Both the position numbers and the translations under genes were made by a program. Below the pieces are notes generated by a model. It made no database searches. It saw only the letters and a program-made list of their open reading frames with translations, and was not told where the DNA came from. From positions 64,001 to 128,000 of the forward strand of contig CAVZYA010000001.1 in assembly GCA_963779415.1 (NCBI GenBank): a stretch of 64,000 nt of DNA, read 5' to 3'. Positions 2,409-25,595 of this stretch are shown in pieces. Numbering within the stretch: position 1 is the first letter of the stretch; each line of letters opens with the position of its first letter. The DNA is from an uncultured Acidobacteriota bacterium. Lineage in GTDB: Bacteria > Acidobacteriota > Thermoanaerobaculia > UBA5066.

Positions 2409-3591
2409 ATGACCGTCACAGAAACGGCATCGGCCCTGACGGCCGTTCCCCCGGTCTCGATTCTTCAGGACCACGAGCGCGAGATCGCGGAAAACGTCCA
2501 CCGGTTCGCGGTCGAGGAAATCGCCCCGAAGTCGATGGAGATGGACCGGGCGAACCTCATGGACCCCGCCCTCGTCCGGAAGTTCTTCGACCTCGACCTG
2601 ATGGGGATCGAGATCCCCGAGGAGCTCGGGGGGCTGGGCCTGAATTTCGCGACGTCGATCGCCGTCATCGAGGCGCTCGCCCGCGTGGACGCCGCGGCGG
2701 CCGTCGTCGTCGACGTCCAGAACACCCTCGTCAACAACGCCCTTCTCCGCTGGGCGAGCCCCGCGCTGAAGAAGAGGTACCTGCCGCAGCTCGCGAAGTC
2801 GAAGGTCGGGGCGTACGCGCTTTCCGAGGCGGGCTCCGGGTCCGATGCGTTCGCCCTCGCGACGACCGCCGCGAGAAAGGGGGACCGCTGGGTCCTGAAC
2901 GGGTCCAAGCTCTGGATCACGAACGGGCTCGAGGCGGAGATCTTCCTCATCTTCGCGAACGTCGACCGGTCGAAGGGGTATCGCGGGATCACGGCTTTCC
3001 TCGTCGAGTCGGGCTGGAAGGGGTTCGGGAAGGGGAAGAAGGAAGACAAGCTCGGCATCCGCGCCTCCTCCACGCTCGCCCTGTCGTTCGAGGACGTCGA
3101 GGTGCCCGAGGAGAACGTCGTCGGAAACGTCGGCGAGGGGTACAAGATCGCCATCGAGACCCTCAACGAGGGGCGGATCGGGATCGGCGCGCAGATGGTC
3201 GGCATCGCCCGGGCGGCGCTCGACTACGCGGCGACAGTACGCGAAGGAGCGGGTGCAGTTCGGCAAGCCGATCGCCGAGTTCCAGGCCATCCAGCACGAC
3301 CTCGCCCGGATGGACATGGAGGTCGAGTGCGCCCGCCTCGCGGTCTACAACGCCGCGCGGCTGAAGGAGGCGGGGAAGCCGTTCGCGCGCGAGGGGGCCA
3401 TCGCGAAGCTGAAGGGGTCGGAGGTGGCCGAGTACTGCACGTCCCGCGGGCTCGAGATCCTGGGGGGCTACGGCTACGTGAAGGATTACCCGATGGAGAA
3501 GCTCTTCCGCGACGCGAAGATCGGGAAGATCTACGAAGGGACCTCCTTCATGCAGCTCAACACGATCGCGAAGGACGTCCTGAAGAGATAG
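2409..3591 (+). CDS. Acyl-CoA dehydrogenase (frameshift near 3235)
   Basis: Motifs YALSEAGSGSDA, LNGSKLWITNG, KLGIRASST and LNEGRIGIGAQ. The second fragment has QFGKPIAEFQAIQH, GGYGYVKDYP and KIYEGTS. Confidence 0.9.
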
Positions 3592-5171: not shown

Positions 5172-5260
5172 GCCGGAGTGGCGAAACTGGCAGACGCAGG
5201 GGACTTAAAATCCCCAGGTCCGAAAGGGCCATGCGGGTTCGACTCCCGCCTCCGGCACCA
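5172..5260 (+). tRNA. tRNA-Leu(TAA)
   Basis: GCCGGAG/CTCCGGC acceptor stem, anticodon loop CT-TAA-AA, long variable arm, GGTTCGACTCC and CCA end. Confidence 0.95.
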
Positions 5261-5289: not shown

Positions 5290-5805
5290 TTGAAGAAACA
5301 CGCTCTCCTCGTCGTCTCCCTCGCCGTGATGGCGGGCGCCTGCTCCACCCTCTCGACGACCGTCGACTTCGACCACTCGGCGGATTTCTCGCGTTATCGG
5401 TCCTACACGTGGAAAGACACGGGCGAGATCGCCGATTCAATATGGGACCGGCGGGTGGAGAGCGTCCTTGAGGACACCGTGGCGGCGAGGGGCCTGAAGA
5501 AGGTCGATCGCGAAGGTGACCTCCTGATGGTGGTCCACGCCCGGTTTTCGGTGGAGACGCAGGTGACCACCTGGAACTCCGGCTGGGGCTACGGATGGGG
5601 ATGGGGACCCACCACCACCCAGGTTACGCAGATCCCTCTCGGCACGATGATCGTCGACCTCGTCGACGCGAAGAACAACCAGCTCGTCTGGCGCGGCATC
5701 GCCAACGACACGCTTCAGCCCGACAAGCAGCCCGAGGAGCGGGAGAAAAAGCTCCGGACGGTCATGGCGGGTCTATTCGCGGATTATCCGCCAGCCCCGA
5801 AGTGA
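5290..5805 (+). CDS. DUF4136-like lipoprotein
   Basis: Signal peptide with lipobox-like AGAC, then DFDHSADFSRYRSY and GTMIVDLVDAKNNQLVWRG. Confidence 0.8.
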   Translation: MKKHALLVVSLAVMAGACSTLSTTVDFDHSADFSRYRSYTWKDTGEIADSIWDRRVESVLEDTVAARGLKKVDREGDLLMVVHARFSVETQVTTWNSGWGYGWGWGPTTTQVTQIPLGTMIVDLVDAKNNQLVWRGIANDTLQPDKQPEEREKKLRTVMAGLFADYPPAPK

Positions 5806-6515
5806 GCGACCCCTTCGCCTTTCTGGAGGATCGCCTCGGCCATCGCTTCGTCGAGAGAGAGCTCCTCGTCCGGGCCCTGACCCACGCGTCGTTCGCGAAC
5901 GAGGCCGAGCCCGCGGCGAAGGTCGTGGACAACGAGACGCTGGAGTTCCTCGGCGACAGCGTTCTCGGATTTCTCGTCGCGGAGCGCCTCTTTCGTTCCC
6001 ATCCCGGCTGGGAGCAGGGGACGCTGACGAAGGCCCGCGCCGAGATCGTCTCCGAGGCCTCCCTCGCGGAGACGGCGCGGCGACTCGATCTGGGGCCGCT
6101 TCTCCGGCTCGCCTCCTCGGACGAGAGGTCGGGAGGTCGCGACCGGGATGCGCGCCTCGCGGACGCGCTGGAGGCGGTCGTCGCGGGCGTCTTTCTCGAC
6201 GGAGGGCTGGAAGCTGCGCGGATCGCCGTCGCACGGCTCTTCGACGCCGACCTCGACGCTCTCGAGCCCGAAGAGCTCCTGCGCCGTGACGCGAAGAGCG
6301 CCCTGCAGGAGCGTGCGCAGGCCGAGGGGAATGCGCTTCCGCGCTACCGGCTTCTCTCGGAGAGCGGCCCCGACCACGAGAAGCGCTTCGTCTACGAGGT
6401 GCGTTACGGATCCGGAGACGAGCTCTTCGCGACGGGGGAGGGCGCGTCGAAGAAGGAGGCGCAGAGGGCGGCCGCCCGCGCCGCCCTCGACCGCCTCAGC
6501 GCGCGAAGCGGCTGA
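5802..6515 (+). CDS. rnc: Ribonuclease III
   Basis: RALTHASFAN, NETLEFLGDSVLG and ADALEAVVAG motifs; dsRBD with GPDHEKRF and GASKKEAQRAAA. The GTG at 5802 overlaps the upstream stop. Confidence 0.95.
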   Translation: MSDPFAFLEDRLGHRFVERELLVRALTHASFANEAEPAAKVVDNETLEFLGDSVLGFLVAERLFRSHPGWEQGTLTKARAEIVSEASLAETARRLDLGPLLRLASSDERSGGRDRDARLADALEAVVAGVFLDGGLEAARIAVARLFDADLDALEPEELLRRDAKSALQERAQAEGNALPRYRLLSESGPDHEKRFVYEVRYGSGDELFATGEGASKKEAQRAAARAALDRLSARSG

Positions 6516-6544
6516 CGAACGACTCGGGAGGCTCGAAGCCGACG
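6473..6544 (+). repeat. 72-bp direct repeat, left copy (contains rnc 3' end and a relic of the dsbD 3' end)
   Basis: 69/72 identical to 9436-9507 by manual alignment. Confidence 0.9.
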
Positions 6545-9435
6545 CTTCCCCCCGTTGGCTGCAACGAATTCGCTTGGATTTCACATAAGATATAGGAGCC
6601 GGTGGGAAGGCGCCGGCGGGGGGGATCGAATGCGTGGCACGTGCGTCGTCCGCGCGCTTCTGATCGCGTTCTCGTTGATTCCGGTGAACCTTCTGGCGGA
6701 TTCGGCCTGGACGATCCCGGGGATCGTGAACGCCCCCGGCCTGAACGGGACGCACTTCGTCTCGGACCTGACCGTCACGAACCCGGGAGGCGCCCCTGCG
6801 AACGTAACCCTCTCGTTCTTCCCCTCCGGGTCGAGCCCGAAGGCGCTGGCGCTGAGTCCGGGCCAAACAGTCGTCTCCTCCGACGTGGTCGGGAGGCTCT
6901 TCGGGACGCCCGGCGCCGCCGGCGCCCTCTCGGTCGTATCGGATCAGCCGCTCCTCATCCGCGCGAAGACGTACAACACGGCCTCGTCCGGAACGTACGG
7001 CGTCGCCCTTCCCGTCGTCTCCTCCGACCGTCTCCTCGCCCCCGGAGACGTGGCCGACAGCCTTTGGGTGAGCCAGGATTCTTCTCCGAGCGCAGGCTAC
7101 CGGACGAACGTCACCCTCGTCTTTCCCGACGCGTCGGGAGGCGCGGCGACCGTGACGATCTTCGACGCGGACGGAAACGAGCGCGGAAGCCGGGACTTCA
7201 GCCTCGCCGCGGCGGGCCAGCAGCAATTCACGGTCGGGAGCTTCGCGGGGGCCGTGCCCGTCGGGCGCGCGCGGGTCGCGGTGACGCGCGGACACGCTGC
7301 CGGATACGCGGTCGTCGTCGACAACGTCACGGGCGACAGCTCCCTCTTCTCCTTCGAGGACCTGCCGGGCGGCATCCAGGACGTCCTCGTGAACGGCGTC
7401 GCGCGGACGAACGGGCGGAATGGATCGTTCTTCCGGACGGACGGGCGCTTCTACAACCCGACGGATACGGACGCGACCGTCGAGGTCGCGTTTCACGCCA
7501 GCGGCATGGCGAACCCTTCGCCCGCGACGGCCTCTTTCACGGTCCCCGCCGGGAAGGTCCTCGGCGTCGTCGACGTCCTCGACTCGCTGCTCGGGCTCCC
7601 CGTCGGCTCCTCAGGCGCCCTGAGGTTCCGGTCGGACTGGCCGGTCGCGATTCTCTGCCGTACGAGCAACGTGGACCCGACGGGGGCGAATCCCGGCACC
7701 TTCGGCTCGCAGCAGAAGCCGGTGCCGCTCCTGTCGTTCCTCACCTCGGCGGACGCCGGAGCCGCGGTCACGGGCATCCGGCAGGACGCTTCGTTCCGGA
7801 CGAACATCGGCTTTGCGGCCGGGGCCGACGGGGCGGCGTACACGCTGACTCTGACGGATGCCGCGGGAAACGCCGTGGCGACGGCGTCGGCCTCGCTCGG
7901 CAGCTTCGGCTGGACCCAGCCGGGAATCCAGGCCCTCTTCCCGGGGACCACGATCCCCGAGAATGCGACGCTTCGGGTGAAGGTCACGGGCGGGAGCGTC
8001 GACATCTTCGACTCGTCCGTAGACAACCTCTCGGCAGACGCGGTCGTCACGCCGATCGCGCCGCTTCCGGTCGTCATCCCGTCGTCGGCGACGATCGGGC
8101 CCGCGGGGGGCTCGATCCGGTCGGACGACGGGCGCCTGACGCTTAAGGTCCCTGCAGGCGCCTTGAGCCAGCCCGTAACGCTCTCCTTCCAGGCCACATC
8201 GACCGACGCGCCACAGGCCATTGGGTCGGGGTCCAGATTCTTCCGTCCGGCGTCTCCTTCTCGATGCCGGTGCTCCTCACCCTCGCGTTCGGGAGAGGCG
8301 ACACGGAGGGATCCAGCGCCGGAGCATTGACGCTCGCTTCGAACGCGGGCACAGGCTGGTTCGCCCTCGGAGGAGGATCCGTGGACCCGGTACGGCACAC
8401 CTTGACGGTTCCGCTCGACTCGACGTCACCGGCGCCGCCGGTATCGTCGGAACATGCGGCCCCGGGGCGAGGTTGACGTCGGCAAGTGGTACTTCGCCAT
8501 CATCGATAGCTGGCGGTTTGACCCGATCGGGATGCAGACGATGTTCGTGGACCAAAAACTGGATCTCTCGGTCAAGTTCGTGGGGTACTCGTCCTCGCTC
8601 ATCGAGACGTCGGGTCGCCTCTTTCTCTCCAGCTCTCCCTCCGAGGTGGCGGTCCGCTGGATCGTCAACGATCAAGTCGCGGGGGGATTGGAGTCGGGCG
8701 TCGTCGTCAGCGTCAGCCCCACGACGGGGACGTACATCGCACCGTCCTGTCCCCCGCGGAGGAACCCGGTCTATCTCAATGCGACGATTGGGAACGCCAC
8801 CGGGTTCGCGCCGCGGTATGGGGTGTTCGGGGGTCTACATGTCCGCGTCCTGGCACGGAAGTGGTCGCTTCAGTGGTTCGTGACGGCAGCGACCGACTGC
8901 AATGGGCAGCAGACCTACTCGGACCGCGTGGACTGGGCCCCGAAGCAGCCGACGATCTCGTTCACCCTGGACGACAATTTCCATGGCTCCGCGACGCAGA
9001 CCTTCCTTGCCGCTTCCCACGACCTCAAAGCGTGTCAGGTGTGTCCGGGTGGCACGATGTCGATCTCGAAGCCCGGCACCGACACTCCGATGATGGTTCT
9101 CGTCACCGCCGACTGGAACAAATGCGAAGACGCCATGGACCTCAATGTCTACACGAATTACTCCGGGTTGCAGGGCGCGTTCGCGCGCTGCACGCATCCG
9201 AACGGGGAATGGGAAGAAGGCGTGATTCCGGAGTTCCTCGGGTTTGAATATCCCCTGTTGGGCTTCCAACCGAAGGATACGTTCGACGCAACAGATGATC
9301 TGCCACCGTGGACGATCGGGGTCGCCGTCGCGCTCGACGGCATCTGTCCGTGACGTCCTGTCCCGAAGGCCCGAGGCGGGAATCCGGGGCGCACGCATCG
9401 CGCCGCCGCGCGTGGTCGACGAGAACCTCGTGCAT
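6545..9435. mobile_element. Putative integrase-less genomic islet bounded by 72-bp direct repeats
   Basis: Flanking duplication of the rnc/dsbD tail-to-tail overlap. The cargo is one secreted-protein gene, and no recombinase is encoded. Confidence 0.55.
6630..9353 (+). CDS. Large secreted protein: tandem A-B-A'-B' module, ZU5-like segment and Cys-rich C-terminus (frameshifts near 8240 and 8470)
   Basis: Signal peptide, repeated motifs ([35 protein letters not shown]) and [24 protein letters not shown]. Clear paralog of 14173-16866. Confidence 0.75.
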
Positions 9436-9507
9436 CGCCCGCGCCGCCCTCGACCTCCTCAGCGCTCGAGGCGGCTGACGAACGACTCGGGAGGCTCGAA
9501 GCCGACG
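9436..9507 (+). repeat. 72-bp direct repeat, right copy (contains dsbD 3' end and a relic of the rnc 3' end)
   Basis: 69/72 identical to 6473-6544. Confidence 0.9.
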
Positions 9508-11243
9508 ATGCGCTCGCCGGTCTCGCGGCCGTCCGGGCCGAGGAAGATCAGCGTCGGAACGCCGAGCACCTTCCATTCGTCCTTCAGCGCCTCGACCTCC
9601 GGCGAGCCGGTCTTCGTCAGGTCGGCCTTCAGGAAGACCCAGCCCTTGCCCGCCGCGACGACGGCCGGGTCGGTGAAGGTCTTGTGCTCGAGCTCCTTGC
9701 ACGGGAGGCACCAGTCGGCGGCGAAGTCGATCATCACCGGCTTGCCGGCCGCCGCCCGCGAGGGCGGCCTCGGAGTAGGGCCGCGAATGACGAGCTGCTG
9801 GCGGCGTGCTTTCTTCGGGAGGGCGAAGAGGACGCCGGCCGCCGAAGAAGCGCGAGCGGCGACGACGATCCGGAGCGGCCCGGAACCAGGCGAGGTCCCG
9901 CCCGCTCTTCTCGAGGAGGAGGAGCCAGACTCCGCCCGCGAGCGAGCGGGGCCGCGACGCCGATCTCGCAGAGGCGAGCCGGAGAGGAGCGGCCGGAGGA
10001 ACCAGACCGCGAGCGCGAGGAGGGCGAAGCCGAAGACGCGGCGGACCGCTTCCATCCACTCGCCCGACCGCGGGAGCTTCGCGAGGCTTCCCGACACCGT
10101 CCCGAGGACGAGGTAGGGAAGGCCGAGCCCCATCGCGAGCGTGAAGAAGAGGCCGAAGTCCGAGCGGGACGGACCCCTTCGCGGCGACATAGGTCAGGAG
10201 CGAGAGGACGAAGGGCCCGATGCAGGGGGCCGCGACGAAACCGACGAAGAGGCCCATCGTGACGGCACCGGCGATTCCTGCCTTCGAGCCCGTCCGGTCG
10301 GTGATGAAGTGAGGGACGCGGATCTCCCAGAGCCCGAACATCGAGAGGGCGAGGGCCGGCGATCAGAAGGGCGATCGCGACGAGGACGGCGGGCTTCTGG
10401 AGCCAGGCGCCGAAGAGCGAGCCGGAGAGCGCCGCGAAGACGCCGAGGGCGGAGTAGGTGACGCTCATCCCGAGGACGTACGCGAGGGCGAGCCCGAACG
10501 TCGAAGGCGTCCGGCCCGAGCCCTGCCGGGCGAAGAAGCCGACCGTGATCGGGATCAGGGGATAGACGCACGGCGTCAGGTTCAGGGCGAGACCGGAGAG
10601 GAAGACGATCGCGAGGATCAGCGGGAGCGACTTGCCCGCGAAGAGGTCCGCTCCCGCGGCGGGGGCCGTCCCCTTCGAGGAGGGCGCGGCCGGAGCGCCG
10701 GCCCGGGGCGAAGAACCCGGCGTTCGCCGCCACCGCGGGCGTGCCTGCGGGGGCGACCTCCATGTCGAGCGTCGCCGTCACCTTCGCAGGCGGGAGGCAC
10801 TGCTCGTCGTTGCAGGGCTGGAACTCGACGGTGGCGGTGAGCGTTCGCGGTCCCGGGATCGCCGAGGCGTCGACCGTTCCGTCGAACCGGAAGAGGACCC
10901 TTCCTTCATAGACGGCGAGCGGCTTCTCCGAGAAGGCGAACTTCATCTCGCGATGGGCGGGGTACTTCGGGGGCGAGACGGTGAGGCCGGGGCCGGCGAC
11001 GAGCGAGACCTGGGTCGGGATCAGGAAATCCTCGTTCGGCGTGTGGCTGTTGACGTGCCACCCCGGCCGGACGTCGGCGACGACGACGAGGCGGAAGGAG
11101 GTCCCCGCGACGAGGCGGTCGGCGTCGGCGCGAAGCGACGCGGAGACGATCGACTCGGGAGGGGGGATCTCCTCCCCGCGGGCGGCCGGGGAGAGAAGCA
11201 GGGCGGCGACGGACGCGGCGGCAAGAAGGATGTTCCGCTTCAT
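9459..11243 (-). CDS. dsbD: Thiol:disulfide interchange protein DsbD (several frameshifts)
   Basis: N-domain QPCNDEQCLPP, membrane domain LNLTPCVYPLIP and VAAPCIGP, LPRSGEWM, and thioredoxin domain DFAADWCLPCKEL. Confidence 0.9.
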
Positions 11244-12329: not shown

Positions 12330-13256
12330 TTTTCCCCCTCCGGACGGCCCCAGTTTCCGATCACGCGAAGAGCCCCGGCGTGCATCCGGAAGACGAGGGG
12401 AGTCGCGTGCGCGACGCCGCGCGTGACGTTTCCGTCGATATGGGCGATGAGGGGCCGGTCGCTTCGAAGAATGATGGAGCGTCCGCGCCGCATCGTCGTC
12501 TTCGCGAGCCGGACGTGCGACCCGTTCAGCGCCTTGGGGAGGTGACGGAGCGCCTCGAGCTTCCGGAAGTCGCCGAGGCGGCAGAAGTCGAAGAGGCCGT
12601 CGTCCGGCTTCGCGTCCGGCGTCAGGTAGAAGCCGCCGCCGCTGGCGGGACCGATCGTCACGGCCGCGAGGATCGCAGGCCCGTCGAGGACCTCGCCGTC
12701 GACCTCCGCGATGAGGCGGAAGTTCTCCCACGTCCGGAGAACGCGGAAGACGGCGGTGAGGTAGGCCGCGAAGCCCCGGATCAGCCGAAGCTTCGCGGCG
12801 TCGGCCGCCACGGCGCCATCGAACCCGAGGCCGACGCCGTTGGCGAAGAAGCGCCCGTTCACCTCCCCGGCATCCATGGTCCGGACCGTCCTGATCGCGA
12901 AGGACGGCCGCGGCCCCCGCGATGTCCCACCGGCGGTGGCCGAGCAGCCGCGCGTAGTCGCACCCGGTCCCGGCCGGCAGGACGCCGAGGATCGGGCGCG
13001 CCTCGGGGGGGACCCTCATGAGGCCACCGACGACCTCGTTCACCGTCCCGTCCCCGCCCACCGCGACGACGATGGTGGCGCCGCCGCGCGCGCTCTCGGC
13101 GGCGAGGGCGAGTCCGTGGTCCGGCCCTTCCGTTTCGAGCCACGTCCCGATGACGCCGGCACGCTCCACCTCGGCGCGGATGCGCTGCTTCTCCCGCCCC
13201 TCCCGCCCCTTCCCTGCGGCGGGGTTCTCGATGAAAACGGTTCTCTGTTCGGACAA
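12308..13256 (-). CDS. Diacylglycerol/lipid kinase family protein, YegS/DagK-like (frameshift near 12900)
   Basis: FIENPAAG, GGDGTVNEV, LPAGTGCDYAR, FANGVGLGFDG, AKPDDGLFD and HIDG motifs. Confidence 0.85.
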
Positions 13257-13284: not shown

Positions 13285-13795
13285 GTGGCCGTACTCCGAG
13301 TCGTCCGCCTGGGCGCGAAGGTCCTCCGGACCCGCGCTTCCGAGATCGAGACCGCCGACCTGAAGAAAGGGCGCCTGAAGCCTTTCTTCGAAGACCTGAT
13401 GGAGACGATGGCCGAGTACAACGGAACGGGGCTCGCCGCGCCGCAGGTCTCGCAGCCGCTCCGCGTCGTCCTCTACGAGATCCAGAGCGAGAGCCGCGCC
13501 AAGGGGCTCTCCGTCCCGCCGACGATTCTGGTGAACCCGCGGCTTCGAGATCCTCGATCCATCGGAGACGGAGGAGTACGAGGCGTGCCTCTCGGTCCCG
13601 TTCCTCGCGGCGAAGGTCCCGCGCCCGCGGAAGATCCGGGTGAGAGCGCTCGACCGGACCGGCAAGCCGCTCGAATTCGTCGCCGAAGACTTTCACGCCC
13701 GCGTCGTCCTGCACGAGAGCGACCATCTCGACGGGACGGTCTACCTGGACCGGGTGAAGGACCGCGCTTCGATCCGCTACACGATTGACTATTGA
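13285..13795 (+). CDS. def: Peptide deformylase (frameshift near 13545)
   Basis: GTGLAAPQV motif 1, then EACLSVP and HESDHLDG in the shifted frame. Confidence 0.9.
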
Positions 13796-14172: not shown

Positions 14173-16866
14173 GTGAAACACGTGCTCGCATCGATCGGCG
14201 TTCTCGTCGCGACCGTCGCCGCGCCCGTCCTCCGCGCGCAGAGTCCGCCCACCGTCTTCGTCTACACGGTCCCGGGCGTCGCGAAGGCGCCGGGGCGGAA
14301 CGGGACGCACTTCGTCACGGACGCGGTGATCACAAACCCGGGCTCCACGCCGGCGATCGTGTCGTACGCGATCGTCCCCGCCGTCGGGACGGCGCCCCCT
14401 TCCCGGCATTCCTGACGCCGGGGCAGAGCGTGACGGTGACGGACGTGGTGGGACGCTCTTCGGGGCGGGCGCGGGCTCCGGGGCGCTGACGGTGACGGGC
14501 CTGGCGCCGCTCGTCATCCGTGCGAAGACGTACAACGACGCGTCCACGGGGACGTACGGCGTCGCCCTGCCGGTCTACACGGACGACCGTTTCCTCGTGT
14601 CGGGCGAGACGGGCCACAGCCTCTGGGTCAGCCAGAGCGCCGACCCGAACTCGGGCTACCGGACGAACGTCACGGTCGTCTTTCCGGACGGGGGGGGCGG
14701 GTCGGCGACGGTGACGGTCTTCGACGGCGGTGGGAACCAGATCGGCCAGCAGCTCTTCTCGATGACGTCGGCGGGGGTGCAGCAGCTCGGGGTGGGGACC
14801 TTCTCATCCCCGTCGAACGTGGCGCGGGCGTCAATCGTGGTCACGAGCGGCCGCGCGGCGGCCTATACCTCCGTCGTCGACAACGTGACGGGGGACTCGT
14901 CGCTCTTCACCTTCGACGACCTCCCGGCCGGCCCGCAGGACGTTCTTCTCAACGGCGTGGCGTACGCGAACGGGAAGAACGGGACGTTTTTCCGGAGCGA
15001 CGGGCGATTCTTCAACCCGGGAGCGACGGACGCGGCGGTGACGCTTCTGTTCCACGCGAAAGGGACGAGCAACCCGTCTCCCGCGCAGGCCACGGTGATG
15101 GTACCGGCCGGGAAGATCGTGGACGCCACGAACCTCGTCGGGGGGCTGCTGGGGCAGCCGGTGGACTCGTCGGGAGCGCTGCGGATCACGTCGGACTCGC
15201 CTGTGGGGATCCTCTGCCGGACCTCGAACGTCGACCCGACGGGCGCGAAGCCGGGGACATACGGGGCGCAGCAGCGGCCGGTGCCGATCCTTTCGTTCCT
15301 CTCCTCGGCCGACGCCGGGGCGCTGATCACGGGAGTGCGGCAGAACGCGGCCTTCCGGACGAACATCGCTCTGGCGGCCGGGCCCGGCGGGGCGACGGCG
15401 CACTTTACGCTGAAGGGGGCGGATGGAACCGTGGCCGGAACGGCGACGCAGAGCCTTGGGCCGTGGGGCTGGGCGCAGACGGCCGTGAACGTCCTCTTCG
15501 CGGGAGTCACGATACCGGACAACGCGGAGGTCTCCGTGACTCTGACGCAGGGGAGCGGCGACCTGTTCGACTCCTCGGTGGACAGTGGCTCAGGCGACTC
15601 GGTCGTGACGGCGGCGCCCGCCGTGCCGGTCTCGATCCCCACGAGCGCGACGATCGGGCCTTCGGGTGGCTCGATCCAGTCAGACGACGGACGGCTGACG
15701 CTGAAGATCCCGGCGGGAGCCCTCGCGACGCCGACGGCCTTCTCGGTCGTGACGGGTGCCAACGGCGCGCCCGGCGCTGTCGGATCCGGCTACACGATCT
15801 CGCCGGCAGGGGCCGCCTTCGCGAGCCCGGTCCGGATCGTGATGGCCTACGGCCGGGAGGAGACGAACGGCTCGGCGCCGCAGTACCTCGGCATCGCCTG
15901 GCAGGGAACGTCGTCCTGGTACGGGCCGGCCAGCCAGTCCGTCGACACGTTCGCGAGGACGATCGCGGCCGACGTGCCGTCACTCCAGATCGCCTCGGCC
16001 CGCTCGGCGGCGTCCCGAACTCCCCTCGCCGGCTTCGGCGCCTCGGTCGGGACATACGCCAGAGTCATCATTCACGGTTTTCCTTTCGCCGTTCAGGGCG
16101 GCACGCGGAATTTCTCGGCCGAGGTCGTGAACATCGGCCCCAACGGCTCGGTCATCCAGCTCGAAGGGGTGGATCCCGCGAACTTCAACTACTACTGGCT
16201 CGTAACGGATCCCCAAGGGGGAAGCTTCGACGGGGCACAGAACGCATACGGGTCGACGGTAACCTACACGGCGCCGGACTGCCCCCCCGCGTCGCGCGTC
16301 GAGGTGACGCTCGACATCCACTCCATGGACGGCGGGCCGATCGCTTCCGTGAAGACGTTCGTCCGGGTGCTCTGGAAGAACTGGACCTACCGGCTCACGG
16401 AGGTCGACACGGTGGCCTGCAGCTCGAATCTGGCCGGGTGGGGCTACACGACCGATTCGAGCGCCGAGGTCGACTTTTCGCTGGCGCCGGACGGGTTGGC
16501 GACGAACGTCAATCTGTCGTCCGAGCCCGCAGAACGTCACGCTCACGACGTGCGGGGCGACGATCGGTGGCTGCACGTATGCGCTCTTCACCCCGTACCC
16601 GATCCAGGTGGACTCGTTCAACGGCACCTATCTCCTGACGGCGGACGCCATCGTCTTCTCCTGCAACTACCACCACATGGGGAGCCCCGGCGTTACGATT
16701 TCATGCCCTGAGGGCAGCGGCGGCCAGTCTGCCGCGCCGGGGACGCTCGACTACAGCACGAACGTCCATGTCGATCCGTTACAGAGGCGCGGCGTCGCCA
16801 CCTTCTCCCGGCGCGGTGAGCTCCCTGACTCTGGAGATGAGGCCCGTCAAGGGGACCTGTCCGTAG
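14173..16866 (+). CDS. Large secreted protein, paralog of 6630-9353 (frameshifts near 14400-14470, 16530 and 16810)
   Basis: AAGGAGGT RBS, GTG start and signal peptide. It shares near-identical motifs with the paralog ([55 protein letters not shown]) and ends KGTCP*. Confidence 0.75.
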
Positions 16867-20118: not shown

Positions 20119-22344
20119 ATGGGCGAGCGCCGGCTCGCGATCCTCACCAGCGGCGGGGATGCCCCCGGAATGAACGCCGTCGTCCGTGCGGCGGTACGGA
20201 CGGCGCTCTCCCGCGAAGCGGTCCCGTTCGCCGTCGCGGACGGGTTCCAGGGCCTCGTCGACGGCGGAGACCGGATCCGCGCGTTGAGCTGGTCCTCCGT
20301 CGGCGGCATTCTCCACCTCGGCGGCACGGTCATCGGGACGGCGCGCTGCGCCGCGTTCTTCGGCCGGGAGGGCCGACGGACGGCCGCCCGGAATCTCCTC
20401 GAAAGACGGATAGACGCCCTCATCTGCGTCGGCGGAGACGGGACGCTCACCGGAGCGGACACCCTGAGGCGCGAATGGCCCTCGCTCGTGGCCGAGCTGG
20501 CGGAGCGGGGCGACATCCCGCCCGACGCCGCCGAACGGCACCCGTTCCTCGCACTCGTCGGGCTCGCCGGCTCGATCGACAACGACATGCCGGGCACCGA
20601 CATGACGCTCGGCGCCGACACGGCGCTTCACCGGATCACCGAAGCCGTCGATGCCCTCACGAGCACAGCCGCGAGCCACCAGCGGGCCTTCGTCGTGGAG
20701 GTGATGGGACGCCGGTGCGGGTACCTCGCGCTGATGAGCGCCCTCGCGACTGGGGCGAGCTGGGTCCTGATCCCCGAGGCGCCCCCGGACGAAGGCTGGG
20801 AAGACCGGATGTGCGCGCGGATCCGCGAGGGACGGAGAGGCGGGCGGCGGCACTCGACGGTCATCGTCGCGGAGGGAGCGGTCGACCGGCGTGGCGCGAC
20901 GATCACGGCCGACCGCATCCGGGCGGTCCTGGAGGAGCGGCTCGGCGTCGAGGCGCGAACGACCGTCCTCGGCCACGTGCAGCGCGGAGGGGCGCCGAGC
21001 GCGTTCGATCGGGTGATGGGAACGCTGCTCGGCCATGCGGCCGTCGAGGAGGCGCTGGCCTTCAGACCCGATTCGATCCCGCAGCTGATCGGACTGAAGG
21101 AGAACCGGATCCAGAAGACGCCGCTGGCGGAATGCGTGGACCGGGCTCGCGCGGTCACGGAGGCTCTCGGAGCGGGCAACTTCGAAGGGGCGCTTTCTCT
21201 CCGCAGCGGAAGCTTCCGCGAAGCGTTCGAGGTTCTCCGGACGCTCGTTCGGGCGCATCCGCAGGAGGCGCCCCCCGGGACCCGCCGCTTCCGGATCGCC
21301 CTCTTGAACGCGGGAGCCCCCGCCCCGGGAATGAACACGGCAGCCCGCACCTTCGTCCGGATCCTCCTCGACCGGGGACACGAGGCGCTCGGCGTGCGGA
21401 ACGGATTCGTGGGGCTCATGGAGGGGACGGTCGAGGAGCTTTCCTGGATGAGCGTCCACGGCTGGGTGAGCCGGGGGGGCGCCGAGCTGGGGACGAACCG
21501 GAAGGTGCCGGACGGCGCCGATTGGGGAGCGGTCGCACGCACCCTCTCCGCGAGCCGCGTGGACGGCCTCCTCGTCGTGGGGGGCTTCACGGGATGCGAG
21601 GCCGCATGGCGGCTTCTCCGGGCCCGGGAGGAGTACGCGGCGCTGAACATCCCGGTGGTCTGCCTGCCGGCAGCCATCGACAACAACCTTCCGGGAGCCG
21701 AGCTGGCGCTCGGCGCGGATACCGCCCTGAACTCCATCGTCGAAGCCGTCGACAAGATCAAGCAGTCGGCGGTGGCGTGGCGGCGCGCCTTCGTCGTCGA
21801 GGTGATGGGGGCCTGGTGCGGCTACCTCGCGACGGCGGCCGGGCTCGCGACCGGAGCGGAGAGGGTGTACATCCACGAGGATCCCCTCACGATGGCGCGG
21901 CTCGAACAGGACGTACGCGACCTCTCGGACGGCTTTGCGAGGGGCAAGAGGCTCGGCCTCGTCATCCGGAACGAGAACGCGCACACGGTCTTCTCGACGG
22001 CTTTCCTCCGCCGCCTCTTCGAGGCGGAAGGGAAAGGGCTCTTCGACGCCCGCCAGGCGATCCTCGGCCACCTCCAGCAGGGGGGAAACCCGACGCCGTT
22101 CGACCGGATCCTCGCGACGCGCCTCGCGGTCCGCTGCGCGGATTTCCTCCTCGAGGCGTGCCGGAAGGGGGAGGCGCCGGCCTCCTTCATGGGTTTCGAG
22201 GGAGGACGCCTCCGGTTCGTCGACTTCGCCCAGTTCACGTCGATGGTGGAGCGGGAGTTCCGGCGCTCGAAGAACCGGTGGTGGCGCTCGTATGAGCCCG
22301 TCGCGGATCTGCTCGACCGGCCGGGGCCGGGGGCCGGCGCTTGA
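20119..22344 (+). CDS. pfkA: ATP-dependent 6-phosphofructokinase, tandem-duplicated eukaryote-type architecture
   Basis: N-half TSGGDAPGMN, GGDGT, GSIDND, EVMGRRCG and LGHVQRGG. C-half GAPAPGMN, AAIDNNLPG, EVMGAWCG and LGHLQQGGNPTPFDR. Confidence 0.9.
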   Translation: MGERRLAILTSGGDAPGMNAVVRAAVRTALSREAVPFAVADGFQGLVDGGDRIRALSWSSVGGILHLGGTVIGTARCAAFFGREGRRTAARNLLERRIDALICVGGDGTLTGADTLRREWPSLVAELAERGDIPPDAAERHPFLALVGLAGSIDNDMPGTDMTLGADTALHRITEAVDALTSTAASHQRAFVVEVMGRRCGYLALMSALATGASWVLIPEAPPDEGWEDRMCARIREGRRGGRRHSTVIVAEGAVDRRGATITADRIRAVLEERLGVEARTTVLGHVQRGGAPSAFDRVMGTLLGHAAVEEALAFRPDSIPQLIGLKENRIQKTPLAECVDRARAVTEALGAGNFEGALSLRSGSFREAFEVLRTLVRAHPQEAPPGTRRFRIALLNAGAPAPGMNTAARTFVRILLDRGHEALGVRNGFVGLMEGTVEELSWMSVHGWVSRGGAELGTNRKVPDGADWGAVARTLSASRVDGLLVVGGFTGCEAAWRLLRAREEYAALNIPVVCLPAAIDNNLPGAELALGADTALNSIVEAVDKIKQSAVAWRRAFVVEVMGAWCGYLATAAGLATGAERVYIHEDPLTMARLEQDVRDLSDGFARGKRLGLVIRNENAHTVFSTAFLRRLFEAEGKGLFDARQAILGHLQQGGNPTPFDRILATRLAVRCADFLLEACRKGEAPASFMGFEGGRLRFVDFAQFTSMVEREFRRSKNRWWRSYEPVADLLDRPGPGAGA

Positions 22345-25300
22345 GGGACGCTCCCGAGCTGCGGGACCGGAGGGTGCGCGAGGCGACCTATGCGATCGCC
22401 CGCGCGGTGTCACGGACCGAAGGGCTCGGCGAGCTCTTCCGGAGCCTGCACCGGATCGTGGCCGACCTGATGGAGGCGAAGAACTTCTACGTCGCCCTCG
22501 CGGACGAGGCGACGGGCCTCATCAGCTTCCCCTATTTCTCGGACGAACGGGATCCCGTCCCTCCGGCCGGACCGCAGGAAGCCGGGCGGGGGTTGACGGC
22601 TTATGTCCTGCGGAGACGGCAGCCTCTCCTCGCGAGCCCGGAGGTCTTCGAGAGGCTCGTCGCGGAGGGAGAGGTGGACCTCGTCGGGGCGCCGTCGGTC
22701 GACTGGCTCGGCGTTCCGCTTCTCGTGGGGGAGCGGACCATCGGCGTCCTCGCCGTCCAGAGCTACTCGGGCGACGTCCGTTACACGAGGGACGATCTCG
22801 ATCTCCTCCTCTTCGTCTCGGCGCAGATCGCCCTTGCCGTCGAGAGGCGCCGGACCGAGGAGGCGCTCCGGGAGAGCGAGCGGCGCCACCGGGCCATCCT
22901 CGAGGCCCTTCCCGATCTCCTCTTCATCCTCTCGCGGGAAGGGAGGTACCTCGCGGTTCACGCCGCGCGCGAGGATCGTCTGATCGCGCCTCCGGAGACC
23001 CTCCTTTCGAGTTCCGTTCAGGAGCAGCTGCCCGGGGAACCCGCCCGCCTCTGGCTCGACGCGATCGGACGGTGCCTCGGAAGCGGCATGCCGGAGGTCC
23101 TTCAATACCCGCTCGACGTCCCGGCGGGACGCCGGTGGTTCGAGGCCCGGATCGTCCCCTACGGAACCGACGCCGTCCTCTCCCTCGTCCGGGACAGGAC
23201 CGAGTTCTACGAGGCCGAGCGGACGCTCCGGCAGCGCGAGCGCGAGCTGAAGAGGCGGACGGACGCGATGATCGACGTCATCGCCGAGATCGGCCTCGAC
23301 GGGAAGTTCCGCTACGCCTCGCCTTCCTACCGGCTCCTCGGATGGGATCCGGAAAAGATCATCGGGACGTCCGGCCTCGATCTCGTCCACCCCGAGGACC
23401 GCCCGAGGGTCCGGGAGGTTCTCTCGGGCGTCGTCCGCGACGGACGCCCTGCGACCGTGCCGTACCGGTTCCGGAAGGCCGACGGCCGTTACCTCTGGTC
23501 CGAATCGGTCGCGACGGTTCTGCTCGATGAAGGGGGCGCGCCGGAGGGTTTCGTCGTCTCCTCGCGCGACGTCACCCTGAGGATCCGGGACGAGGCCATC
23601 CTCTCGGTCCTCCACGAGACGGAGAGGGCGCTCCTCCGTCGCGAGCCGGTCGAGCCGCTCCTCCAGAGGATCTGCGACCAGCTCCTTTCGATCTTCGGCC
23701 TCGAAGCGGTTTTCATCGGCGAGCGGACGGCGGACGGGTCGATCGTGGCGCGAGCGTCGGCGGGAGCCGATGCGGGGCGGACGTCGCTGCCGGGGACCTT
23801 TCTCGCGCCGCTCGCGGCCCGCGACCGGGTCCTCGGAGTCCTCGAGGTACGGACGGCTCCGGACGTGCCGGTGGACGCGGAGACGCAGGCGATGCTCCAC
23901 CGCTTCGCCGATCAGATCGCCCTCCTTCTCCTCGAGGCCGAGCAGCTCGATCGCCTCCAGCTCCAGACGGCCGCCCTCGAGGCGGCGGCAAACGCCGTTC
24001 TGATAAGCGACGCCGAGGGGCGGGTCGAGTGGGTGAACCGGGCTTTCGCCGAGCTGACGGGCTACTCGCTCGAGGAGATGCGGGGGCAGACGCCACGGAT
24101 CCTGAAGTCGGGCGTCCAGAACCCTTTCTACTACGAAAAGCTCTGGGAGACGGTCCTTGCGGGGAACGTCTGGCATGGGGAGCTCTATAACCGGCGGAAG
24201 GACGGCTCCGTCTACATCGAGGAACAGACGATCACGCCGGTCCGCGGGTCGGACGGGACGATCCGCCACTTCGTCGCCATCAAGCAGGACGTCACGATGC
24301 GCAAGAGGACCGAGGAGCGGATCCGGCACCTCGCCCTGCACGATCCCCTCACGGACCTCGGGAACCGGCGCGCCGCGGAGGAGGTCCTCGAACGCGCCGT
24401 GGCGCGGGCGCGCCGCGGCACGCCGACGACGCTTCTCCTCCTCGACCTCGATCACTTCAAGGTCGTGAACGACACGCTCGGGCACGCGGCCGGAGACACG
24501 GTCCTCATCGACGTGTCGCGGCTTCTTCTCTCGCTCCGGCGACCCGGCGACGAGGTGGCGAGGCTCGGCGGCGACGAGTTCGTCGTCGTCCTCGAAGGGA
24601 CGGAGACGGAGGCCGGCCGGCTCGTCGCGGAGCGGCTCCGGCGGGCCGTGGAGGAGCACCCTTTCGAGGTCGGAGGGCGCCGCTTCGATCTCGGCGTCTC
24701 CATCGGAGTCCTTCCGATCGACGGACGGGTCGAGGCCGGGGCGCTGCTCGGGCTCGCGGATGCGGCGCTCTACGCGGCGAAGGAACGGGGCCGGAACCGG
24801 ATCGCGATCAGCGACGGAACGAGCGCACCGCTCGGACCGCTCTCCGAAGCGAGCCTCTGGGCCTCCCGTGTCAAGGAAGCCCTGCGCGAGGGAAGGTTCG
24901 TCCTCGCCTTCCAGCCGATCGTCCGGCTCGCGACGAGGACGCCGACCCATTACGAAGCGCTTCTCCGGATGCGCGATCCGGAGGGAGGGCTCCTCCTGCC
25001 CGGCGTCTTCCTCCCCGCCGCGGAGCGGTTCGGCCTGATGCCGCAGATCGACGCATGGGTCTTCTCGGAACTGCTCGGCCTCCTCGCGCAGCGCCACGAC
25101 CTCGAGATCTTCATGAATCTCTCCGGAGCGAGCCTCGGCGACGAGAGCCTTCTTCTCTCGTTCGAAGAGCGTCTCCGCACGAGCAGGATCGGCCCGGGGC
25201 GCCTCGCCATCGAAGTGACCGAGACGACGGCGGTCCGCGACATCCTCGCGGCCCGGGAGTGGATGCGGCGCCTGAAGGACCTCGGATGCCGGTTCGCGCT

Positions 25301-25595
25301 CGACGACTTCGGCATCGGGTTCTCCTCCTTCGCCTACCTCCAGAGCCTTCCGGTCGACTACGTCAAGATCGACGGATTCTTCCTTCGCGACCTCGCCTCG
25401 AGCACGGCCAACCGTGCCCTCGTGCAGGCGATCGAGACCGTGTCCGAGACCCTCGGCAAGGAGACCATCGCCGAATCGGTGGAGCACGCGGAGTCCATCC
25501 CCGTCCTCCTCTCGCTCGGCGTGGAGTTCGGGCAGGGGTACGCGCTCGGGATGCCGTCGGTCGGACCCCCTCCCCGGCCGCGGACGGGCCCCTAG
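22341..25595 (+). CDS. GAF-PAS-PAS-GAF-PAS-GGDEF-EAL diguanylate cyclase/phosphodiesterase
   Basis: WLGVPL GAF motif, PAS motifs (VHPEDR, NRRKDG), HDPLTDLGNR, RPGD..RLGGDEF, YEALLR and DDFGIGFSS. Confidence 0.92.
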   Translation: MRDAPELRDRRVREATYAIARAVSRTEGLGELFRSLHRIVADLMEAKNFYVALADEATGLISFPYFSDERDPVPPAGPQEAGRGLTAYVLRRRQPLLASPEVFERLVAEGEVDLVGAPSVDWLGVPLLVGERTIGVLAVQSYSGDVRYTRDDLDLLLFVSAQIALAVERRRTEEALRESERRHRAILEALPDLLFILSREGRYLAVHAAREDRLIAPPETLLSSSVQEQLPGEPARLWLDAIGRCLGSGMPEVLQYPLDVPAGRRWFEARIVPYGTDAVLSLVRDRTEFYEAERTLRQRERELKRRTDAMIDVIAEIGLDGKFRYASPSYRLLGWDPEKIIGTSGLDLVHPEDRPRVREVLSGVVRDGRPATVPYRFRKADGRYLWSESVATVLLDEGGAPEGFVVSSRDVTLRIRDEAILSVLHETERALLRREPVEPLLQRICDQLLSIFGLEAVFIGERTADGSIVARASAGADAGRTSLPGTFLAPLAARDRVLGVLEVRTAPDVPVDAETQAMLHRFADQIALLLLEAEQLDRLQLQTAALEAAANAVLISDAEGRVEWVNRAFAELTGYSLEEMRGQTPRILKSGVQNPFYYEKLWETVLAGNVWHGELYNRRKDGSVYIEEQTITPVRGSDGTIRHFVAIKQDVTMRKRTEERIRHLALHDPLTDLGNRRAAEEVLERAVARARRGTPTTLLLLDLDHFKVVNDTLGHAAGDTVLIDVSRLLLSLRRPGDEVARLGGDEFVVVLEGTETEAGRLVAERLRRAVEEHPFEVGGRRFDLGVSIGVLPIDGRVEAGALLGLADAALYAAKERGRNRIAISDGTSAPLGPLSEASLWASRVKEALREGRFVLAFQPIVRLATRTPTHYEALLRMRDPEGGLLLPGVFLPAAERFGLMPQIDAWVFSELLGLLAQRHDLEIFMNLSGASLGDESLLLSFEERLRTSRIGPGRLAIEVTETTAVRDILAAREWMRRLKDLGCRFALDDFGIGFSSFAYLQSLPVDYVKIDGFFLRDLASSTANRALVQAIETVSETLGKETIAESVEHAESIPVLLSLGVEFGQGYALGMPSVGPPPRPRTGP

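What the first reader, a model, noticed from the sequence alone, without database searches (positions are those of the whole stretch)
6473..9507. Integrase-less single-gene islet inserted by duplicating the 72-bp rnc/dsbD overlap
Seen in sequence: 6473-6544 and 9436-9507 are 69/72 identical. Each copy holds both the rnc 3' end (+ strand, ARAALD.LSAR.G*) and the dsbD 3' end (- strand, VGFEPPESFVSR..R*). The left copy serves rnc and the right copy serves dsbD. Between them lies one secreted-protein gene, with no integrase or transposase. Inference: rnc and dsbD ancestrally overlapped tail-to-tail, and a cassette entered by Campbell-like or homology-driven insertion that kept both genes intact. 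The three mismatches suggest an aged biological event rather than a fresh duplication or misassembly.
Basis: partly seen in the sequence, partly recalled or inferred. Interest (0 to 1): 0.8.

Follow-up and report, generated by a model that had tools for sequence, protein, structure and literature searches.

The report
Foreign gene wedged between overlapping genes
A horizontally acquired secreted-protein gene sits inside the tail-to-tail overlap of two housekeeping genes, and a 72-base copy of that overlap on each side lets both genes keep a complete end; it is a tidy natural example, not a new kind of mobile element.

Summary
A 72-nt direct repeat (69/72; the only two copies in the 4.36-Mb genome) flanks a 2,891-bp insert between convergent rnc and dsbD. 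Four same-genus genomes have the empty site, with one copy of the junction and exactly the 20-nt rnc/dsbD overlap that each repeat copy contains. The insert holds one ~907-codon secreted, all-beta protein gene (split by two compensating frameshifts in an indel-noisy assembly). It also holds a 54-nt internal fragment of an ECF sigma gene. No recombinase is present.

The cargo is nested (ML support 100/99, 99/97) among homologues from a sister genus. There it belongs to a cargo / Ser-Thr kinase / ECF-sigma module lying directly beside rnc. It is 77-83% identical to them, against 59-65% for rnc, so it was acquired horizontally.

Both repeat copies are recipient-type. The right joint falls in up to 12 nt shared by the sigma fragment and the rnc tail. 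I read this as recombinase-independent illegitimate insertion with a 72-bp target duplication, kept because it preserved both genes.

Two other genera carry unrelated ~3-kb inserts at the same junction with 41-nt and ~23-nt repeats. Junction reads were not available. Interest is moderate.

The parts
5172..5260 (+). tRNA-Leu(UAA). This is context: in the sister genus the cargo module often lies directly downstream of this tRNA.
   Evidence: ARAGORN. The tRNA is seen upstream of cargo homologues in G155, G156, G142 and G161.
5802..6515 (+). rnc (RNase III), intact. Its last 43 nt lie in the left repeat copy.
   Evidence: Pfam Ribonucleas_3_3 1.6e-30 and dsrm 3e-16. Orthologues found in 159 of 175 genomes of the order.
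6473..6544 (.). Left copy of the 72-nt duplication: a functional rnc tail plus a 29-nt non-functional dsbD tail.
6545..6629 (+). The cargo's own upstream region, with a conserved motif block and ribosome-binding hairpin shared with sister-genus cargo genes. The left joint is 6544|6545.
   Evidence: Alignments.
6630..9353 (+). Cargo: secreted all-beta protein gene of ~907 codons. Two compensating frame changes lie near 8228 and 8450, at G/C runs. The N-terminal 532 aa are 77-83% identical to sister-genus homologues; the C-terminal 299 aa are only 29-39% identical.
   Evidence: AlphaFold2 model.
9354..9393 (.). 40 nt of unassigned sequence between the cargo stop and the sigma fragment.
   Evidence: No match.
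9394..9447 (-). Internal 18-codon fragment of a PF07638-type ECF sigma gene. Its last 12 nt (9436-9447) are also the first 12 nt of the right repeat copy.
   Evidence: 78-91% nt identity over 42-55 nt to 7 of 8 island sigma genes compared. Translation aligned. Pfam on the G153 sigma.
9436..9507 (.). Right copy of the 72-nt duplication: a non-functional rnc tail plus the functional dsbD tail. The right joint is 9435|9436.
9459..11243 (-). dsbD (DsbD_N, transmembrane and thioredoxin parts), read in at least three frames in this assembly.
   Evidence: Pfam. Frame changes relative to G003 dsbD.

Best explanation
What it is. In the ancestor of this genome, rnc and dsbD converged and overlapped by 20 nt. 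A piece of foreign DNA was then inserted into that junction. It came from an island made of a secreted beta-sandwich protein, a Ser/Thr kinase and an ECF sigma factor; in a sister genus this island lies immediately beside rnc.

How it got there. No site-specific recombinase was involved. The ends were joined by illegitimate, short-homology recombination. The right joint lies within up to 12 nt that the sigma gene and the rnc tail share. The event duplicated 72 bp of the recipient's own junction. The enzymology is not resolved: it could be a replicative template switch that returned 72 nt behind its departure point, or repair of a staggered break.

Why the duplication is there. Because the two genes overlap, only an insertion that duplicates the overlap leaves both genes with complete 3' ends, so selection retained this rare form. 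What remains today is the cargo gene with its own upstream region plus a 54-nt sigma remnant.

Afterwards. Each repeat copy now answers to one gene only. The three substitutions lie in or beside the former overlap.

Shown versus inferred. Shown: the repeat, the empty site, the foreign origin of the cargo, the sigma remnant, and the absence of a recombinase. Inferred: the joining mechanism, one step versus several, and the role of selection.
For: Repeat and copy number.

Empty site:
- 20-nt overlap in G003, G005, G007 and G002.
- The junction alignment shows relatives continue the left flank of the left copy and the right flank of the right copy.
- G003 synteny, with its junction matched by both window copies.

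Deep conservation of the adjacency: of 134 genomes of the order with both genes listed, 131 have them on one contig, 130 are convergent, and 127 lie within 450 nt.

Foreign origin:
- The cargo N-terminal part is 77-83% identical to G161, G156, G142 and G158, while rnc is 59-65% identical.
- The ML tree places the window's cargo inside that sister-genus clade (100/99 and 99/97).
- GC falls to 0.58 at 9000-9299, against ~0.67-0.72 around it.

Island context: the cargo / kinase / ECF-sigma module lies beside rnc in G153, G158, G159, G155 and in metagenome loci L082-L084.

Sigma remnant and shared 12 nt at the right joint.

Both copies are recipient-type.

No recombinase and no terminal inverted repeats.

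No second copy of the insert in the genome; only a 69.6%-identical paralogue exists.

No homology beyond the repeat borders.

The duplication is special to this site: of 20 lineage-specific indel or replacement sites in ~250 kb of G000/G003 synteny, only this one has a flanking repeat above the shuffle controls.
Against: - No donor closer than 83% aa / ~82% nt was found, so neither joint can be reconstructed. In the available sigma genes the 12-nt stretch matches only 7-9 of 12.
- The 3-nt match suggested at the left joint rests on an uncertain alignment with two genomes.
- Neither junction is covered by independent reads, and an exact search for the right joint in metagenome contigs found nothing. 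The assembly is indel-noisy.
- In G009 a perfect 41-nt repeat flanks a 3.1-kb insert although rnc and dsbD do not overlap there. Selection alone therefore does not explain such duplications.
- The sister-genus islands between rnc and dsbD show no flanking repeats.
- The order cargo, sigma fragment, rnc tail, dsbD is collinear with the arrangement cargo-kinase-sigma-rnc-dsbD in L083 and L084. That also fits the multi-step rival.
Confidence: 0.6

Rival explanations
1. Multi-step, homology-assisted route. Donor DNA arranged cargo-kinase-sigma-rnc-dsbD paired with the recipient's rnc/dsbD. This could be a Campbell-type single crossover of a circle, or 'crossed' recombination with two sister chromosomes. 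The result was rnc-island-rnc-dsbD with a long duplication. Later deletions removed the kinase, most of sigma and most of the second rnc. The last deletion ran between the sigma gene and the rnc tail at the shared 12 nt.
For: - The right part of the locus (cargo, sigma fragment on the minus strand, rnc tail, dsbD) is collinear with L083, L084 and G155.
- The module lies on either side of rnc in the sister genus, as expected if rnc-island-rnc intermediates resolve both ways.
- The sigma piece is an internal fragment, which needs at least one deletion anyway.
Against: - It needs four events where one or two suffice.
- Homologous exchange would have to occur between rnc genes only 59-65% identical at the protein level.
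- The left copy carries 29 nt of recipient-type dsbD tail, so the left joint is illegitimate in any case.
- No degenerate rnc remnant lies left of the right copy, here or in G009.
- The rnc remnants in three independent cases are all short (43, 40, ~20 nt).
Confidence: 0.2
2. Site-specific integration into the rnc 3' end by a recombinase acting in trans, with the repeats as att sites.
For: - Three genera carry unrelated ~3-kb inserts at this junction, each flanked by a repeat that includes the rnc tail: 72 nt here, 41 nt perfect in G009, ~23 nt in G011.
- The left borders of the repeats in G000 and G009 differ by only 3 nt in homologous position (read).
Against: - No recombinase lies in any of the three inserts.
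- Repeat lengths and right borders differ (29, 1 and about 9 nt past the rnc stop).
- Both copies are recipient-type.
- The 72-mer has no unusual secondary structure (z 0.6, 0.8, -1.1).
- The right joint continues into a sigma gene fragment, not an element end.
Confidence: 0.07
3. Assembly artefact: a chimeric or mis-joined contig that places sister-genus-like DNA inside this genome.
For: - The assembly is noisy: 5 of 16 genes compared with G003 are split across frames.
- The insert is phylogenetically foreign.
- No independent read spans a junction.
Against: - The switch points are not in homologous sequence.
- The insert is not collinear with any known island, since the kinase and most of sigma are missing.
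- A 72-nt repeat is far too short to mislead a long-read assembler. This point is inference: I take the three-contig, indel-noisy assembly to be long-read.
- The two copies differ at three positions and show no indels.
- Three short public contigs match the cargo with 0 differences.
Confidence: 0.05
4. The insert is ancestral, and relatives lost it by recombination between the repeats.
For: Deletion between 72-nt direct repeats would regenerate exactly the empty site.
Against: - The empty, adjacent arrangement holds across three families (127 of 131 same-contig cases within 450 nt).
- The 20-nt overlap is shared by four same-genus genomes.
- The cargo is nested in a sister-genus clade and is far more similar to it than the flanking genes are.
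Confidence: 0.03

Closest known systems
Integrase-mediated islands and prophages that enter the 3' end of a gene and bring a replacement 3' end (tRNA-targeting islands; e14 in icd, which I recall and did not check here)
   Same: Direct repeats flank the insert, and the target gene keeps a complete 3' end thanks to the duplicated segment.
   Different: There is no integrase in or next to the insert. Both repeat copies are the recipient's own sequence. The right joint runs into a gene fragment. Two genes are rescued at once because they overlap.
Illegitimate integration of foreign DNA at short GC-rich homologies during natural transformation: homology-facilitated and double illegitimate recombination in Acinetobacter. 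I saw these papers only as entries in the reference list of PMC8116780; their details are recalled. A preprint abstract on short-patch double illegitimate recombination appeared in the listing.
   Same: Foreign DNA, no recombinase, and a joint in a short GC-rich shared stretch.
   Different: As I recall, those events usually delete recipient DNA. Here 72 bp of recipient DNA is duplicated. The donor and recipient loci are the same neighbourhood (beside rnc).
Target-site duplications of transposons
   Same: A direct duplication of target sequence flanks the insert.
   Different: The duplication is 72 nt (41 and ~23 nt in the other two genomes), not the few bases typical of transposons. For example, 5 bp is reported for Tn1 in passages of PMC8116780. 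There are no terminal inverted repeats and no transposase, and the insert is single-copy.
Template-switch models of replication (microhomology-mediated break-induced replication) and laboratory duplication-insertion recombineering (both recalled)
   Same: They predict an insert flanked by a duplication of variable length, short homology at the return joint, and short templated fragments such as the 54-nt sigma piece.
   Different: Nothing here shows replication was involved. The template would have to be incoming foreign DNA.

Membership tests
Integrative island or prophage at a gene 3' end | Site-specific recombinase (integrase) encoded in or beside the element | tested here: not met
   Pfam and NCBIfam on all ORF pieces of the insert gave no recombinase. 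The neighbours are a DUF4136 protein, rnc and dsbD.
Integrative island or prophage at a gene 3' end | Flanking direct repeats (attL/attR), one derived from the element | tested here: inconclusive
   Repeats are present, but both copies carry recipient-lineage sequence. No donor is available to test for an attP.
Integrative island or prophage at a gene 3' end | Excision: circular form or empty-site reads in the same population | not testable with these tools
   Only two low-share public runs were found, and no contig reaches a junction.
Transposon or insertion sequence | Transposase and terminal inverted repeats | tested here: not met
   No inverted repeat at 6545 / 9435 among the 25 pairs listed. 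No transposase domain.
Transposon or insertion sequence | Short target-site duplication of fixed length, and multiple copies | tested here: not met
   The duplication is 72 nt. The insert is single-copy in the genome.
Illegitimate (short-homology) integration of horizontally acquired DNA | Foreign origin of the insert | tested here: met
   Identity contrast of 77-83% against 59-65%. The tree nests the cargo in a sister-genus clade.
Illegitimate (short-homology) integration of horizontally acquired DNA | Short shared sequence at the joints, and no extended homology | tested here: inconclusive
   Right joint: sigma homology overlaps the repeat by 12 nt, but the true donor is unknown. Left joint: only a doubtful 3-nt match. 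No extended homology beyond the borders.
RNase III (rnc) | RNase III catalytic domain plus a dsRNA-binding domain in one open frame | tested here: met
DsbD | DsbD_N, transmembrane and thioredoxin parts in one open frame | tested here: inconclusive
   All three parts are present, but in at least three frames. The assembly shows the same kind of frame breaks in housekeeping genes.
ECF sigma factor, Pfam PF07638 | Full-length sigma with regions 2 and 4 | tested here: not met
   Only 18 codons remain (9394-9447). They match sigma genes that do score PF07638, for example G153 at 1.6e-52.

The most novel reading that the evidence does not exclude
The 3' end of rnc, at its junction with dsbD, is a recurrent target of an undescribed insertion process. 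That process places ~3-kb single- or two-gene cassettes without an element-encoded recombinase and duplicates 20-70 nt of target. Three independent events in three genera (72, 41 and ~23 nt) would be its footprints. The near-coincident left borders in G000 and G009 would mark a preferred break point.
Probability: 0.12. Interest if true: 0.7.

Novelty: new variant of a known kind. Interest (0 to 1): 0.42.

Why it matters
The locus shows how foreign DNA can enter between two overlapping genes without harming either: the overlap is duplicated and each copy then serves one gene. It is a natural record of an overlap being uncoupled, and the only substitutions sit where the double coding constraint was lifted.

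It also shows that an 'integrase-less single-gene islet' can be the worn-down stump of a larger regulatory island that moves between genera and stays beside the same housekeeping gene.

If the recurrence at this junction reflects a mechanism and not only selection, it would point to an unrecognised way of generating long target duplications in bacteria.

Tried and rejected
- **Independent reads.** Two public runs held only 0.08 and 0.05 of the sampled words. When laid, none of their contigs reaches either junction.
- **Exact search for the right joint** in metagenome contigs: 0 matches.
- **Closer donor.** The best relatives are 83% (G158, partial), 81% (G161) and 82-83% (L082, L083).
- **Donor for the G009 insert.** The best match in 175 genomes is 35-36%.
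- **Second copies of the G009 and G011 inserts** in their own genomes: none.
- **Flanking repeats around the sister-genus islands:** none at the island ends.
- **Flanking repeats at the neighbouring def-nuoB variable region:** none.
- **Hairpin or terminator at the junction.** Fold z-scores were 0.6, 0.8, -1.1 and -0.13. No terminator-like or sigma-70-like sites were found.
- **Function of the cargo.**
  - Pfam gave only a sub-threshold FlgD_ig hit (E 0.0096), and NCBIfam gave nothing.
  - The ESM Atlas gave a cluster of 51 hypothetical proteins and a weak ZU5 lead at 0.78.
  - The AlphaFold2 model (mean pLDDT 72.6, all-beta) matched only multi-beta-sandwich proteins at TM 0.17 or below.
  - So 'tandem beta-sandwich secreted protein' is as far as this goes.
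- **Literature.** Two full-text searches listed no paper on inserts that duplicate a convergent gene overlap. The paper PMC122324 is not held.
- **Genome-wide scan for isolated short direct repeats**: swamped by paralogous gene families and not pursued.
Full report
**The observation**

The window holds a 72-nt direct repeat at 6473-6544 and 9436-9507 with three mismatches. These are the only two copies in the 4.36-Mb, three-contig assembly. Each copy contains the rnc stop and, 20 nt upstream on the other strand, the dsbD stop.

The left copy closes an intact RNase III gene starting at 5802 (RNase III and dsrm domains). The right copy closes the thioredoxin-domain end of dsbD.

Between the copies lie 2,891 bp. 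Pfam and NCBIfam find no recombinase there. No inverted repeat marks the ends.

**Quality of the assembly**

dsbD is read in at least three frames, and the cargo in three pieces. This is not special to the locus. Of 16 genes from the syntenic stretch of the same-genus genome G003 that match the window, 5 are split across frames in the window. They include peptide deformylase and a diacylglycerol-kinase-like gene.

The two cargo frame changes sit at G/C runs and cancel each other. The gene has 907 codons, against 908 aa for the intact G161 homologue. I therefore treat the frame breaks as probable consensus errors, and dsbD as probably intact. This is not proven.

**The empty site**

rnc and dsbD are convergent neighbours throughout the order.
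- From the two order-wide searches (175 genomes each) I tabulated 134 genomes with both genes listed.
- In 131 the two genes lie on one contig, 130 are convergent, and 127 are within 450 nt by alignment ends.
- This tally includes the unpublished genomes G025, G030, G089 and G136, all of the adjacent kind. No other claim rests on them.

In the window's own genus, G003, G005, G007 and G002 show exactly the 20-nt overlap. G004 shows the same stop spacing in the alignment, but my ORF walk failed there.

The junction alignment shows that the relatives' single copy continues the left flank of the window's left copy and the right flank of its right copy. G003 is collinear on both sides, and both window copies match its one junction. 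The insert is therefore derived and the duplication is of the target.

**What was inserted**

The cargo starts with a signal-like segment. The model is all-beta (mean pLDDT 72.6). Only low-TM matches to multi-beta-sandwich proteins came back, and no family names it.

Its closest relatives are in a sister genus (g4), where it lies next to rnc in two layouts:
- **Between tRNA-Leu(UAA) and rnc:** G161, G156 and G142; and G155 with a Ser/Thr kinase-TPR gene and a PF07638 ECF sigma gene in between.
- **Between rnc and dsbD, with kinase and sigma:** G153, G158 and G159.

Metagenome loci repeat both layouts: L083-L086 the first, L082 the second.

The window's N-terminal 532 residues are 77-83% identical to G161, G156, G142 and G158, whereas rnc is 59-65% identical to theirs. 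A maximum-likelihood tree of 12 sequences puts the window's cargo inside that clade, with support 100/99 and 99/97. The rows were chosen from loci I had fetched; other homologues listed were not included.

The C-terminal 299 residues are only 29-39% identical to any homologue. They lie in a GC dip down to 0.58, so the gene is itself mosaic. The paralogue 5 kb downstream (window ~14266-16800) is only 58-60% identical and is not the source.

**The sigma remnant and the joints**

Window 9394-9447 on the minus strand encodes 18 residues of the island's ECF sigma factor. It matches 7 of the 8 island sigma genes compared, at 78-91% nt identity over 42-55 nt (L084 gave no hit).

This homology runs 12 nt into the right repeat copy (9436-9447). 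There the sigma reading (Ala-Ala-Arg-Ala) and the rnc reading on the other strand use the same GC-rich bases. The right joint therefore lies in a stretch of up to 12 nt common to both partners. In the sigma genes at hand, 7-9 of the 12 bases agree, and the true donor is unknown.

The other end of the fragment (about 9393) is a second breakpoint, followed by 40 unassigned bases.

At the left joint the cargo's conserved upstream block begins about 11 nt inside the insert. A possible 3-nt match with two sister-genus sequences is weak. There is no homology beyond either repeat border. The 72-mer has no unusual fold, and there are no promoter- or terminator-like sites.

**Mechanism**

Both repeat copies carry the recipient lineage's own sequence, so the duplication was made from the target and was not brought in by the element. 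Three further facts point to illegitimate insertion of horizontally acquired DNA with a 72-bp target duplication:
- there is no recombinase;
- the cargo is single-copy;
- the right joint lies in short shared sequence.

A replicative template switch that returns 72 nt behind its departure point would give this product, as would fill-in of a staggered break. I cannot tell them apart.

Selection explains why this form is seen here. With a 20-nt overlap, only an insertion that duplicates the overlap leaves both genes whole. In line with this, I examined 20 lineage-specific indel or replacement sites (7 in G000, 13 in G003) over ~250 kb of synteny. Only this site has a flanking repeat above the shuffle controls: score 129, against a shuffle maximum of 30.

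The three mismatches (6493, 6503, 6507) all lie in or just beside the former overlap. At 6507 the dsbD-serving copy keeps the leucine seen in relatives, while the other copy does not (reading). With three sites this is only suggestive.

**What does not fit neatly**

- The order cargo, sigma fragment, rnc tail, dsbD is collinear with the layout cargo-kinase-sigma-rnc-dsbD of L083, L084 and G155. A multi-step route is therefore possible: homology-assisted duplication-insertion giving rnc-island-rnc, followed by deletions. I give it 0.2.
- Two other genera have unrelated inserts at the same junction.
  - G009 has 3,130 bp encoding a 482-aa protein without a family and an HXXEE membrane protein, flanked by a perfect 41-nt repeat.
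  - G011 has ~3.0 kb encoding a 963-aa BNR/sortilin-like protein. It is flanked by a ~23-nt repeat with one mismatch and one gap, scoring 34 against a shuffle maximum of 30.
- In G009 the genes do not overlap (about 19 nt apart), so the duplication there was not needed.
- The left borders of the G000 and G009 repeats are 3 nt apart in homologous position.

This leaves room for a site-preferring process (0.07 for a trans-acting recombinase; see also the novel case). The sister-genus islands between rnc and dsbD have no flanking repeats.

**Checks that could not be made**

No read set covers the junctions. The exact joint is not in the metagenome contig collection. Two literature searches listed nothing on this kind of event. 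My comparisons with homology-facilitated and double illegitimate recombination, template-switch replication, and e14/icd rest on recall, apart from the reference list and passages seen in PMC8116780.

**Verdict**

This is a real, derived, recombinase-less insertion of horizontally acquired DNA into an overlapping convergent gene pair, with a 72-bp target duplication that uncoupled the two genes. It is a new variant of a known kind (illegitimate integration of foreign DNA) and of moderate interest. The recurrence at this junction is the part most worth following up.

Noticed in passing
window 1-27000 (examples near 12892-12897, 13539-13544, 1925-1944, 3233-3235): Housekeeping genes are split across reading frames relative to the same-genus genome G003 (5 of 16 genes compared). 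The assembly appears to carry many single-base indel errors.
   Followed up: partly
window ~14266-16800 (+), between def (13285-) and nuoB (17100-): A 58-60% identical paralogue of the cargo, also frame-broken, sits in a variable slot. G003 has an unrelated ~3.4 kb there, and several other genera have def and nuoB about 0.7 kb apart. No flanking repeats were found.
   Followed up: partly
window 22325-25572 (G000 C1:86325-89572): A further G000-specific ~3.2-kb insertion relative to G003. It has a clean empty site in G003 (3-nt gap) and no flanking repeat. Its content was not examined.
   Followed up: no
L063 (G153), L071 (G159), L072 (G158), L076 (G155), L073-L075, L082-L086: In the sister genus the cargo / Ser-Thr kinase-TPR / ECF sigma module lies either upstream of rnc (after tRNA-Leu) or downstream of it (before dsbD). 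The same module thus appears on both sides of one housekeeping gene. In G153 and G159 the sigma gene starts at the dsbD stop, like an operon.
   Followed up: partly
window 6556-6629 and the upstream regions of cargo homologues (alignment): A conserved upstream block (a TGCAA-GAA-like box, a GCATAT-like box about 20 nt later, then a GC hairpin before the start codon) is shared by all cargo genes compared. It may be the target promoter of the linked ECF sigma factor, which this genome has lost at this locus.
   Followed up: no
L072 (G158) versus L073/L074 and L063/L071: The rnc of G158 groups with G153 and G159 (88%), but its cargo groups with G161 and G156 (87%). The cargo has therefore also been exchanged within the sister genus.
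   Followed up: no
L045 1768-4979 (G009) and L046 1545-4580 (G011): Independent ~3-kb inserts lie at the rnc/dsbD junction with 41-nt (perfect) and ~23-nt flanking repeats. In G011 the 963-aa cargo ORF ends in the duplicated dsbD tail (last residues Arg-Leu-Arg, as in dsbD).
   Followed up: partly
dsbD matches in g4, g7 and g8 genomes (table; loci L009, L013-L015, L020, L053, L059, L060): In these genera the thioredoxin-like segment aligns between the DsbD_N and transmembrane parts, and the search reads through one stop codon. DsbD therefore seems to have a different domain order, or to be split into two genes.
   Followed up: no
window 6733-6994, 7255-7405, 7407-7557: Short contigs of two public runs labelled soil metagenome match the cargo with no differences. 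In one of these runs, contigs over rnc differ at 9 of 297 and 3 of 151 bases.
   Followed up: no
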